Assembly (NCBI RefSeq): GCF_057098645.1 | Contig: NZ_CM169472.1 | Length of the DNA: 64,000 bases | Reading direction: 5' to 3' (one strand) | Part shown: positions 12,001-15,000 of the stretch, in pieces | Layout of the letters: the number at the start of each line of letters is the position of its first letter | How positions within the stretch are numbered: position 1 is the stretch's first letter | Position numbers: made by a program

Positions 12001-15000
12001 AAAGACAATACGAATCGCACTTTATCAATTTTCACTTAAAGTATGAACTGGATATCTTTATTCATAAGAACTATTCATCAACAGCGTATAGAGGCGGTTA
12101 TGTAAAACCACTCATTAGCCTCAAAACAAAGACAAACTTCCAGATTTATTACTTAATCAATGAATAACAAGCTTAAAAAATACACTGTTATACTTAAGAA
12201 AAAATTAACAGGCATTAATTAATATTAAAAAATAATATATTAAAATTTCTTAACGGTTTAAGAATTATACAAATAACACTTTGATTAAATTTAATTTTTT
12301 GTATCGATAATTGTGAACTTATCTGGCATGGGGAACTATTTTGAACATGAGGGGTTACGTGGATATGTTGCTTATTACGAGTACTGCTAATATAAAAACT
12401 TGAGAAAGAGATAACGGGTTATATGGTGGTTTATCCCCACTGGCGCGGGGAACTTGAGCCCTGCCAGAATGGGGCCTCTTTTGTACCCGGTTTATCCCCG
12501 CTGCCGCGGGGAACACATTTACTGATTGTACCAGGTAGGAAAAGATCGCGGTTTATCCCCGCTGGCGCGGGGAACTCATGATTGTCGATTTTTTCCGACA
12601 GGATTTTGCGGTTTATCCCCGCTGGCGCGGGGAACTCTCTAAACATAACCTATTATTAATTAATGATTTTTTAAGCCAGTCACAATCTACCAACTTTACA
12701 GTATCACACAAACAACACATCCATTATGTTAAAGAGCACTTAACCAATTGATTAAAAAGGTAAATATTTAAAATAACTCTATACAAACTAAAATCTACCA
12801 AACTTTACCGCAATAATTTTCACTCCAGTGAAAAATTAACGCCACAGAATTTGTAGAGAATGATAATGATTAGTTCAGGATGGGCAAAATGGAGCTTTTT
12901 CAGAGACGACAAAGAATATAAATGAGTAGAAGTCTTTACAGGTTCCACCCATTTATAACGCTTATAAATGTTTAATCAGGCAATATTTAAATATTTATGG
13001 GTTTGCATCGACAAACGCCAATTACGCGCAATGCAGGTTTCAATGCACAAACGTGTGGCATCATCCTTTTGGCTAATCGGCTGCAGTGCAATGACTCGCG
13101 GTTTATCATCGGTCAGCGTCGCCAAAAGTTCATCCAGTGCTTCAATATCACGTACGCGTCCCACTGGGTGCTTGATTTCGTTGGCTCGCTCCAGTGCCTG
13201 TGACAACACTTCATAGCCGCCGCGCATGTTCAGCTTTGGCGATACGGTAACCCAGATATTCGGTGTACAGCGTACCTCATGAGTACCACTGGTCTCGATC
13301 TGGCAGCTAAAACCGTTCTTTTCGAGCAGATCAGTCAGTGGTAGCAAATCATGAATGCAAGGCTCACCACCCGTAATCACCACATGCCGCGCGGTGTATC
13401 CCTGGCGACTAATGACAGCCAACAAGTCTTCACTGCTCGCCGCCCCCCACTTATCACTCTCTTTGGTCTTCGCCAGAATGCTGAAAAGGGAGACTTCCCG
13501 ATCCTCAAGCTTTTCCCAGGTGTGTTTGGTGTCGCACCAGGCACAGCCAACCGGGCATCCCTGTAAACGAATAAAAATGGCGGGGACGCCGGTAAAGTAA
13601 CCCTCACCTTGCAGGGTCTGGAACATCTCGTTAATCGGGTACTGCATAGCATTCTCTGTGAAGTGGATAATTGTTAATTATTGCAGATCCTGCCGCAACA
13701 ATCATGTCTTATTAACATTCTGTTACAGGCAGGTTTAAGGCAAAAAGTGCATTAGATCATAAAGAATAAAATGAAGCGGCGTATTATGTTTTAAGGAATT
13801 AATGAAAAAGGATTTAAACATGCTCAGGATATTCATCGTAATTATATTTATTTTCAATTTATCAGGCTGTGGATATAACGATATTCAAACCTATGATGAG
13901 CAGGTTAACGCCTCCTGGTCTGAGGTATTAAATCAATATCAACGTCGCGCCGATCTTATTCCTAATCTTGTCGCCTGTATTAAAGGTTATTCCAACCATG
14001 AAAAAGACGTTTTGGAAGCCGTAACATTGGCTCGTAGCCAGGCTAATCGCGCCAGCAGCGATCTTCAGCAAGCTCCCGGAGATGCACAAAAATTACAAGC
14101 CTGGCAACAGGCCCAGGCGCAGGTGACTCGCACTCTCGGTCAGTTAACGATAATTAGTGAGCGTTACCCTGAGTTAAAGGCTCAAGAGCTCTATCAAAAC
14201 TTAATGGTACAGCTCGAAGGAAGTGAAAATAGAATTGCCGTTGCGCGAGGAAGATATATTAAAGCCATTGAACAATATAATGTCACTATCCGCAAATTCC
14301 CCGCTGTATTAACCGCAAAGGTCATGGATTACACGCCAAAGAAAAATTATTTACCGGATGATGTCGCCGCAGTAAGTAAAGCCCCAACAATAGATTTTAG
14401 CCAGAATGCTAATGCTCATTAAGCGGGGAAGTTCTGTGCGAAATTTTATCTTCCTTATGGCTTTCTTCTGTTCATCTGTGTTTGCCACACAAATTCCAGT
14501 ACCTGAATCCCCCAAGTATGTGAATGACTTAACCGGCACATTAACAAACAGCGAAGTAAACACCCTGACCAACCAGATTAAAGCCCTGACGCAAAAAAGC
14601 CACGCACAACTGGTCGTGTTAGTGGTTGAAACAACAGGCGATGAAACCATCGAGCAGTACGCAACGCGGGTATTCGATAGCTGGAAACCGGGTGATAAAG
14701 ACCGCGATGATGGCGTTCTACTGTTAGTCGCCTGGCAGGATCATACCGTGCGTATTGAAATCGGTTACGGACTGGAAGGTATTATTACAGATGCGCAGTC
14801 CGGGCAAATTATTCGCAACAGTATTATTCCGGCATTTAAAAATGGTGATCTTGCTGGCGGTTTACAAAAGGGGATCAGCGATATTGAAAGTCGTCTTACG
14901 GGGAATAATTTAGCAACGATAACACCGACCGATCACCCTTTGCCCTTTAGCGGTTGGTGGGCATTGTTAGTCTGGGCGATAGTACTGACGTTTATTTCTG

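What the first reader, a model, noticed from the sequence alone, without database searches (positions are those of the whole stretch)
12684..12809. Duplicated 16-17-bp motif inside the CRISPR leader
aatctaccaactttac (12684..12700) and aaatctaccaaactttac (12791..12809) are near-identical direct repeats about 107 bp apart, lying about 47 and 155 bp from the first repeat. Spacing of roughly ten helical turns and position relative to the array suggest paired protein-binding sites (for example nucleoid-protein or integration-host-factor-type architectural sites used in spacer acquisition or leader transcription).
Basis: seen in the sequence. Interest (0 to 1): 0.35.

Follow-up and report, generated by a model that had tools for sequence, protein, structure and literature searches.

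The report
Two integrase-docking motifs in CRISPR leader
The duplicated motif is real: the copy near the array is the already known docking site for the spacer-inserting enzyme Cas1-Cas2, and the far copy is a second, conserved version paired with a second IHF bending site, as in many related bacteria.

Summary
The window is E. coli O145:H28-like. The array (12427-12637, minus strand) is the cas-less CRISPR-II array next to queE. On the leader strand the copies read GTAAAGTTGGTAGATT (-62..-47) and GTAAAGTTTGGTAGATT (-171..-155).

The proximal copy is already explained. It coincides with the conserved -44..-59 block and the integrase anchoring site (-50..-53) that Cas1-Cas2 needs after IHF bends the leader.

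The distal copy is not an accident. I compared 58 leaders from many Enterobacterales species.
- A second GGTRRA sits 45-47 bp upstream of a second IHF consensus in 21 of 26 leaders without cas2 upstream.
- It does so in 29 of 29 cas2-adjacent leaders, where it lies inside cas2 under synonymous-site constraint.
- The window has an exact IHF consensus at 12741-12753, with the motif at that same offset.
- Motif-to-motif spacing comes in classes of 84-86, 95-97 and 108 bp, about 8, 9 and 10 helical turns.

The motifs themselves are not IHF sites or promoter hexamers. The likely role is IHF-folded docking of the integrase, which is shown only for the proximal copy and inferred for the distal one.

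Multi-IHF, multi-motif I-E leaders are already reported, so this is a new member of a known kind. Interest is modest.

The parts
12427..12637 (-). CRISPR-II (CRISPR2.3) array with 4 repeats and 3 spacers. The leader-proximal repeat is 12609-12637 and the degenerate trailer repeat is 12427-12455.
   Evidence: The locus lies between ygcE and queE, as in E. coli O145:H28 and K-12.
12646..12672 (-). Proximal IHF region, using the published range -9..-35. The consensus-like core TAATAATAGGTTA is at -21..-9 (12646-12658), preceded by an A-tract.
   Evidence: The range comes from PMC5224486. The junction-anchored consensus of 58 leaders is aAAtCAat.a.aTA at -23..-9. The window core matches 7 of 9 specified consensus positions by my own count on the sequence.
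12684..12699 (-). Proximal copy GTAAAGTTGGTAGATT (-62..-47). Its core TTGGTAGATT is at 12684-12693. The integrase anchoring site GTAG (-53..-50) is at 12687-12690.
   Evidence: It coincides with the conserved block -44..-59 and the IAS -50..-53. The TTGGTRGA core is conserved in 58 leaders.
12729..12753 (-). Distal IHF module. It comprises an exact consensus AATCAATTGGTTA (-116..-104, 12741-12753) and the conserved CTCTTTAA (-99..-92, 12729-12736).
   Evidence: One search gives the exact WATCAANNNNTTR match. The module AAATCAAnnnGTTAnnnnTCTTTAA is conserved in most of the 61 leaders scanned, at -93, -104/-105 or -116.
12792..12808 (-). Distal copy GTAAAGTTTGGTAGATT (-171..-155). Its core TTGGTAGATT is at 12792-12801. 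GGTAGA starts 46 bp upstream of the W of the distal IHF consensus.
   Evidence: The same offset is seen in 21 of 26 leaders without cas2 upstream and in 29 of 29 cas2-adjacent leaders. The best hit of the proximal-motif matrix lies exactly 52 bp upstream of the distal IHF site.
12752..12764 (-). TTTACCTTTTTAA, identical to the last codons plus stop of the O145 cas2 gene. It may be a relic showing that this leader descends from a cas2-tail-plus-leader duplication.
   Evidence: Comparison of the window leader with the O145 CRISPR-I leader. The offsets to the cas2-adjacent architecture are 10-11 nt. This is an inference and was not tested statistically.
12976..13647 (-). queE (ygcF), co-directional with and upstream of the leader. 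It bounds the 338-bp spacer that holds all the leader elements.

Best explanation
The two copies are the proximal and distal 'upstream motifs' of a two-module type I-E CRISPR leader. Each module is a TTGGTRGA-type motif followed by an IHF site.

Proximal module. IHF bound at about -21..-9 makes a U-turn that brings the proximal motif (-62..-47, containing the integrase anchoring site GTAG at -53..-50) back against Cas1-Cas2 sitting on the leader-repeat junction. This is what restricts spacer insertion to the first repeat. That step was shown experimentally for the K-12 CRISPR-I leader and is transferred here by sequence homology.

Distal module. A second IHF bound to the exact consensus at -116..-104 would make a second bend and bring the distal motif (-171..-155) back toward the complex. 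It could give the integrase, or the folded leader, a further contact that raises efficiency or fidelity. This step is inferred from conservation, fixed spacing and helical phasing. It is not shown.

The array has no cas genes of its own. It would be served in trans by the intact cas1-cas2 at the CRISPR-I locus about 25 kb away in the matching genome.
For: Identity of the locus and orientation:
- The window is 99.9% identical to E. coli O145:H28. The array lies between ygcE and queE.
- The cas operon is intact elsewhere in that genome.

Proximal copy as a known element:
- It sits at -47..-62, against the published conserved block -44..-59.
- Mutating -50..-53 abolished the Cas1-2/IHF supershift, in vitro integration and in vivo acquisition (PMC5224486).
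- Reviews place the IHF-delivered upstream element at -50..-55 (PMC10011333).
- The core is conserved in 58 junction-anchored leaders.

Distal module, from leaders fetched from one genome per species:
- The best match to the proximal-motif matrix anywhere in -330..-70 lies 51-53 bp upstream of the distal IHF module in 18 of 28 leaders without cas2 upstream and 19 of 30 cas2-adjacent leaders. Chance would give about 1.2% per leader.
- GGTRRA sits 45-47 bp upstream of the distal IHF W in 21 of 26 leaders without cas2 upstream and 29 of 29 cas2-adjacent leaders.
- In leaders without cas2 upstream, the motif and the IHF site are the only conserved islands. Flanks carry 0.11-0.24 bits per position.
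- Inside cas2 the motif is held by synonymous constraint. The Pro codon is CCG in 28 of 28 and the Val codon is GTR in 29 of 29. Other four-fold columns of the same genes use all codons.

Phasing:
- The distal IHF site lies at -93, -104/-105 or -116.
- Motif-to-motif spacing is 84-86, 95-97 or 108 bp, that is 8.1, 9.2 and 10.3 turns.

Against: - No experiment bears on the distal copy.
- A 60-bp leader is reported to be essential for acquisition when Cas1-Cas2 are over-expressed (cited in PMC5224486). The three 12-bp blocks that paper mutated lie within -34..-69. Nothing further upstream is known to be required.
- The same preprint describes the E. coli I-E system as relying on one IHF.
- Within Escherichia the distal copy is no better conserved than its neighbours: 6 of 17 columns vary, against 12 of 38 in the adjoining stretch. 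One lineage has GGCAGA and E. albertii has a broken distal IHF consensus. The module may therefore be decaying in this genus.
- Simple U-turn arithmetic (my own, assuming the bend centre is about 1 bp upstream of W) puts the distal motif beside the proximal one only in the -93 class. In this leader it would be displaced by about 23 bp.
- Motif-to-IHF spacing differs between the modules, 33 bp against 46 bp.
Confidence: 0.6

Rival explanations
1. The distal copy in this particular leader is an evolutionary leftover. The CRISPR-II leader arose by duplication of a cas2-tail-plus-leader segment, and the distal GGTAGATT is simply what remains of the cas2 codons for P-V-D-L. It no longer does anything in E. 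coli.
For: - The leader contains TTTACCTTTTTAA, identical to the last codons and stop of O145 cas2.
- GGTAGATTT lies 35 bp upstream of that stretch, against 34 bp in cas2.
- Within Escherichia the distal copy varies as much as its flanks, and one lineage has lost GGT.
- No part of the leader upstream of about -69 is known to be required.
Against: - In 21 of 26 leaders without cas2 upstream, from many genera, the motif survives at the exact offset while the former coding flanks have decayed to background. This argues for selection on the DNA itself.
- Descent from a cas2 tail explains only GGTAGATT, not the further GTAAAGTT match to the proximal copy.
- In cas2 itself the motif is under synonymous constraint.
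Confidence: 0.2
2. The distal module controls transcription of the pre-crRNA. IHF at -116..-104 and a factor bound to the distal motif would tune the CRISPR-II leader promoter.
For: - A review citing Pul et al. 2010 puts the likely CRISPR-2 transcription start about 95 nt upstream of the first repeat (PMC10011333). The distal IHF site would then overlap the promoter region, with the distal motif about 60-75 bp upstream of the start.
- The leader is H-NS silenced.
Against: - No promoter-like hexamer pair overlaps either copy.
- The same motif in the proximal position is a demonstrated Cas1-2 determinant, not a transcription element.
- In cas2-adjacent leaders the distal module lies inside or at the end of a transcribed gene, yet keeps the same geometry.
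- No regulator with this recognition sequence was identified here.
Confidence: 0.12
3. The two motifs are themselves binding sites for IHF or another nucleoid protein.
For: The AT-rich leader is known to bind IHF and H-NS. The spacing is close to whole helical turns.
Against: - Neither copy matches the IHF consensus. The window's exact consensus hits lie elsewhere, including one at 12741-12753 between the copies.
- Mutation of the block containing the proximal motif (CBS2, -46..-57) had only a minor effect on IHF binding and did not affect IHF-mediated bending, yet abolished acquisition. Mutation of -50..-53 left the IHF band but removed the Cas1-2-dependent supershift.
Confidence: 0.05
4. The similarity is a chance match in AT-rich DNA.
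For: 9 of 500 dinucleotide shuffles of the 338-bp spacer reach the same self-alignment score.
Against: - The core is over-represented in the window: 3 occurrences against 0.25 expected.
- The distal copy occupies the conserved offset seen in dozens of species.
Confidence: 0.02

Closest known systems
Integrase anchoring site (IAS) / upstream recognition motif of the E. coli type I-E leader (Yoganand et al. 2017, PMC5224486; Wright et al. 2017 as cited)
   Same: The proximal copy has the same position (-47..-62 against -44..-59; IAS -50..-53 = GTAG here). It has the same conserved core TTGGTRG and the same arrangement upstream of the proximal IHF site.
   Different: The experiments were done on the cas2-adjacent CRISPR-I (2.1) leader, whose sequence differs (GGTTGGTGGGTTG). 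This is the cas-less CRISPR-II leader. Nothing was tested here at the bench.
Multi-IHF, multi-motif CRISPR leaders (Santiago-Frangos et al. 2021, as summarised in bioRxiv 10.1101/2023.05.26.542337)
   Same: It has a second IHF consensus and a second subtype-specific motif 100-200 bp upstream of the repeat, with conserved helical phasing.
   Different: I could not read the 2021 paper. I therefore cannot say whether its I-E distal motif is this GGTRGA element, or whether the E. coli CRISPR-II leader was included. The later preprint describes E. coli I-E as a one-IHF system.
Type I-F leader of Pseudomonas aeruginosa (two IHF sites plus IR-distal and IR-proximal)
   Same: It works in a similar way. 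Two IHF bends fold about 150 bp of leader so that two copies of one short motif contact the integrase.
   Different: In I-F the motifs are inverted repeats bound by Cas2 of a Cas2/3 fusion. Here they are direct repeats, and the proximal one is contacted by Cas1. Spacings differ. The leaders are not members of the same family.
Phage lambda attP arm-type sites with IHF sites H1, H2 and H' (analogy drawn in PMC5224486 and in the preprint)
   Same: Repeated short integrase arm sites are interleaved with IHF bends that deliver them to a distant core site.
   Different: The integrase is of a different family, there is no sequence relation, and lambda has more sites and more accessory proteins.

Membership tests
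I-E leader integrase anchoring site / upstream recognition motif (proximal copy) | Lies about 44-59 bp upstream of the first repeat, just upstream of the IHF site. | tested here: met
   The proximal copy is at -47..-62, with GTAG at -53..-50.
I-E leader integrase anchoring site / upstream recognition motif (proximal copy) | Sequence is conserved across I-E leaders of IHF-containing bacteria. | tested here: met
   The consensus aaAagTTGGTgGAaTtTT at -61..-44 in 58 leaders reaches up to about 1.9 bits per position.
I-E leader integrase anchoring site / upstream recognition motif (proximal copy) | Mutation abolishes the Cas1-2/IHF higher-order complex and spacer acquisition. | not testable with these tools
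   Shown only for the K-12 CRISPR-I leader in PMC5224486.
Multi-IHF / multi-motif I-E leader (distal copy) | A second IHF consensus site lies upstream of the first. | tested here: met
   Exact WATCAANNNNTTR at 12741-12753, which is -116..-104. It is homologous to the module at -93 or -104/-105 in other species.
Multi-IHF / multi-motif I-E leader (distal copy) | An additional conserved motif lies 100-200 bp upstream of the repeat, at a fixed distance from the distal IHF site. | tested here: met
   GGTRRA is 45-47 bp upstream of the distal IHF W in 21 of 26 leaders without cas2 upstream and 29 of 29 cas2-adjacent leaders. The window value is 46 bp.
Multi-IHF / multi-motif I-E leader (distal copy) | Helical phase of the motifs is conserved. 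| tested here: met
   Motif-to-motif spacing falls in classes of 84-86, 95-97 and 108 bp. The distal IHF site lies at -93, -104/-105 or -116.
Multi-IHF / multi-motif I-E leader (distal copy) | The distal elements contribute to integration. | not testable with these tools
   No experiment is available. The 2021 source paper is not held.
   There is no consensus match at either copy.
Sigma-70 promoter element | The motif coincides with a -35 or -10 hexamer of a promoter-like pair on the leader strand. | tested here: not met
   The only minus-strand promoter-like pair is at 12887-12860. None overlaps either copy.

The most novel reading that the evidence does not exclude
The textbook one-IHF model of E. 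coli-type I-E spacer integration is incomplete. Across Enterobacterales the leader would be a two-bend device. Its distal half is a second copy of the Cas1-2 docking motif 46 bp upstream of a second IHF site. That half is written into the 3' end of cas2 under synonymous constraint and overlaps the cas2 stop codon. It would fold back in helical register to give the integrase a further contact, as in type I-F. Orphan arrays such as CRISPR-II would keep it because it matters for acquisition at native Cas1-2 levels.
Probability: 0.35. Interest if true: 0.55.

Novelty: new member of a known kind. Interest (0 to 1): 0.33.

Why it matters
If the distal module works, two consequences follow. First, leader constructs of about 60-70 bp used in most E. 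coli adaptation work, and in CRISPR-based DNA recorders, would lack part of the natural targeting device. Second, the end of cas2 would be a dual-use sequence, both protein-coding and an integrase/IHF landing pad. If it does not work in E. coli, the finding is still a clean example of how a CRISPR leader is built and how orphan arrays inherit it. In neither case is it a new kind of system.

Tried and rejected
- **Promoter and terminator scan of the spacer.** No element overlaps the motifs and no terminator was found.
- **Rfam scan.** It returned only a sub-threshold Chlorobi-1 hit on the first repeat, which I judge spurious.
- **Concerted evolution of the two copies.** I checked by eye whether copies in one leader share the same A/G variant (GGTAGA or GGTGGA). 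They agree in about half of the leaders, so there is no sign of gene conversion.
- **Cas2 homology in the window leader.** tblastn gave no hit at E <= 1e-3. Only short anchors (GGTAGATTT, TTTACCTTTTTAA) support the relic idea.
- **A second leader remnant beyond the trailer end.** A local alignment was not significant.
- **Source literature.** Santiago-Frangos 2021 and Wright 2017 are not held. Pul 2010 was reachable only through a review.
- **Within-Escherichia conservation.** Twelve CRISPR-II leader sequences (the window plus 11 others) have too few substitutions to separate constraint from drift. What there is shows no extra constraint on the distal copy.

Full report
**1. Where we are**

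The window matches E. coli O145:H28 chromosomes at 99.9% identity. The four repeats at 12427-12637 read CGGTTTATCCCCGCTGGCGCGGGGAACTC on the plus strand. The type I-E array is therefore on the minus strand, its leader lies at higher coordinates, and leader position -n equals window 12637+n.

The locus lies between ygcE and queE. This is the cas-less CRISPR-II (2.3) array. queE (12976-13647, minus strand) is upstream and co-directional, leaving a 338-bp spacer. The intact cas3-cas2 operon and the CRISPR-I array lie about 25 kb away in the matching genome, outside the window.

**2. The observation**

On the leader strand the copies are GTAAAGTTGGTAGATT (-62..-47; window 12684-12699) and GTAAAGTTTGGTAGATT (-171..-155; window 12792-12808). 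They match at 16 positions with one 1-nt indel and lie 108 bp apart. The distances to the first repeat are right.

- The 10-nt core TTGGTRGATT occurs three times in 64 kb against 0.25 expected, and two of the three are these copies.
- In the AT-rich spacer alone, 9 of 500 dinucleotide shuffles give an equally good self-match.

On its own the repeat is suggestive, not compelling.

**3. The proximal copy is a known element**

Yoganand et al. (PMC5224486) found two conserved blocks in I-E leaders: the IHF site at -9..-35 and a block at -44..-59. Mutating -46..-57, or only -50..-53, abolished the Cas1-2/IHF supershift, in vitro integration and in vivo acquisition. Mutating -46..-57 had only a minor effect on IHF binding and did not affect IHF-mediated bending. 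They named -50..-53 the integrase anchoring site. A review places the IHF-delivered upstream element at -50..-55 (PMC10011333).

Here -53..-50 is GTAG, inside the proximal copy.

A scan of one genome per species gave 67 loci. After removing internal-spacer matches and adding the window and the two E. coli CRISPR-I leaders, 62 leaders were collected and 58 were used for the junction-anchored consensus. That consensus shows aaAagTTGGTgGAaTtTT at -61..-44 and aAAtCAat.a.aTA at -23..-9.

**4. The distal copy is a conserved element too**

Junction-anchored leaders show a second perfect IHF consensus with a fixed tail, AAATCAAnnnGTTAnnnnTCTTTAA. It lies at -93, at -104/-105, or, in Escherichia CRISPR-II, at -116.

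In the window it is the exact consensus AATCAATTGGTTA at 12741-12753. That is one of six exact matches in 64 kb.

I scanned -330..-70 of each leader with a matrix built from the proximal motifs.

| Test | Leaders without cas2 upstream | cas2-adjacent leaders |
|---|---|---|
| Best matrix hit 51-53 bp upstream of the distal IHF module (chance about 1.2% per leader) | 18 of 28 | 19 of 30 |
| GGTRRA 45-47 bp upstream of the distal IHF W | 21 of 26 | 29 of 29 |

The window value for the second test is 46 bp.

In the leaders without cas2 upstream, the motif and the IHF module are the only conserved islands. The flanks carry 0.11-0.24 bits per position.

**5. Inside cas2 the motif is held at the DNA level**

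In cas2-adjacent leaders the distal motif is the codon run ccG GTR GAt (Pro-Val-Asp).

- The Pro codon is CCG in 28 of 28. The other conserved Pro column uses CCT, CCC or CCA in 29 of 29.
- The Val codon is GTA or GTG in 29 of 29. Three other Val columns use all four codons.
- Four-fold sites elsewhere in the same stretch have third-position entropies of 1.2-2.0 bits.

Many cas2 genes end in E-N-Q-stop, which is GAAAATCAATAA. The distal IHF consensus therefore overlaps the stop codon.

These sequences are related by descent, so the Fisher p-values are not exact. The other columns of the same genes act as the control.

**6. Phasing**

The distance from the distal motif to the distal IHF site is fixed. 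So is the distance from the proximal motif to the junction. Only the segment between the distal IHF module and the proximal motif varies, in steps of 11-12 bp.

| Motif-to-motif spacing | Leaders | Helical turns at 10.5 bp per turn |
|---|---|---|
| 84-86 bp | 14 | about 8.1 |
| 95-97 bp | 20 | about 9.2 |
| 108 bp | 3, all Escherichia CRISPR-II | about 10.3 |

One further leader has a spacing of 90 bp (about 8.6 turns), outside these classes.

**7. Mechanism**

- Shown by others, on the CRISPR-I leader: IHF bends the leader and presents the proximal motif to Cas1-Cas2 at the first repeat.
- Inferred here: the second IHF site and the second motif form a further fold-back contact. This resembles the two-IHF, two-motif I-F leader, whose structure is known.

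My own arithmetic assumes the bend centre lies about 1 bp upstream of the W. It puts the proximal motif alongside the start of the repeat. It puts the distal motif alongside the proximal motif in the -93 class, but about 11 bp and about 23 bp further out in the other two classes. The exact contact in this leader is therefore uncertain.

**8. Evidence against, and rivals**

- No part of the leader upstream of about -69 is known to be required when Cas1-Cas2 are over-expressed.
- The field describes E. coli I-E as a one-IHF system.
- Among twelve Escherichia CRISPR-II leader sequences (the window plus 11 others), the distal copy varies as much as its flanks: 6 of 17 variable columns against 12 of 38. 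One lineage has GGCAGA. E. albertii has ACTCAA in the distal IHF site. The proximal 100 bp is nearly invariant.
- The leader carries TTTACCTTTTTAA, identical to the end of O145 cas2, 35 bp downstream of GGTAGATTT. In cas2 the distance is 34 bp. The orphan leader probably descends from a cas2-tail-plus-leader duplication.

A 'relic' reading for this genus therefore cannot be excluded. The survival of the motif in many leaders without cas2 upstream, in other genera, argues that the element is functional as a class.

A transcriptional role is possible because the CRISPR-2 start is reported at about -95. That would place the distal IHF site on the promoter. However, no promoter-like hexamers overlap the motifs. 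The motifs do not match the IHF consensus.

**9. Novelty**

The proximal copy is already known. Leaders with several IHF sites and several upstream motifs, including 'some I-E' leaders, are already reported (citing Santiago-Frangos 2021, which I could not read).

As far as I could check, these points may add to that:
- the E. coli CRISPR-II leader, and in degenerate form the K-12 CRISPR-I leader, belong to this class;
- the distal motif is a second copy of the integrase anchoring motif at a fixed 46 bp from the distal IHF site;
- it is embedded in cas2 under synonymous constraint.

I file it as a new member of a known kind, with modest interest.

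Noticed in passing
L005-L071 cas2-adjacent loci; K-12 L002 about 3086-3125 (minus strand): The last 15-18 codons of cas2 carry leader elements. GGTRGA sits in the P-V-D codons under synonymous constraint. In many species the distal IHF consensus overlaps the final E-N-Q-stop codons (GAAAATCAATAA). The last cas2 codon lies at a few discrete distances from the first repeat, mainly -95/-96, -99 and -107/-108, with -111 and -125 also seen.
   Followed up: partly
window 12752-12764 (minus strand): TTTACCTTTTTAA in the cas-less CRISPR-II leader is identical to the last codons plus stop of the O145 cas2 gene. This suggests the orphan leader descends from a duplicated cas2-tail-plus-leader segment.
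   Followed up: partly
window 12274-12286 (minus strand) and 12213-12227: A second exact IHF consensus, AATCAAAGTGTTA, lies about 140 bp beyond the trailer repeat and resembles the leader's distal IHF site. An inverted copy of the leader's AT-rich proximal segment lies nearby. A local alignment to the leader was not significant.
   Followed up: partly
window 11896-11925 and about 12327-12345: There is a solitary degenerate I-E repeat (a CRISPR2.2 remnant, 77% identical to the consensus repeat). A repeat-like fragment (GTTCCCCATGCCAG on the minus strand) lies downstream of the array.
   Followed up: no
window 12817-12834: A perfect 7-bp palindrome, TTTTCAC-TGGA-GTGAAAA on the leader strand, lies just upstream of the distal copy. 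It is perfect only in the O145 sequence. The other Escherichia leaders examined have TCGC or TCGT in the left arm, and no T-run follows it.
   Followed up: partly
L074 (E. coli strain J6): An IS1 element has replaced the leader from about -160 downstream, together with the array. Only the queE-proximal part of the spacer remains.
   Followed up: no
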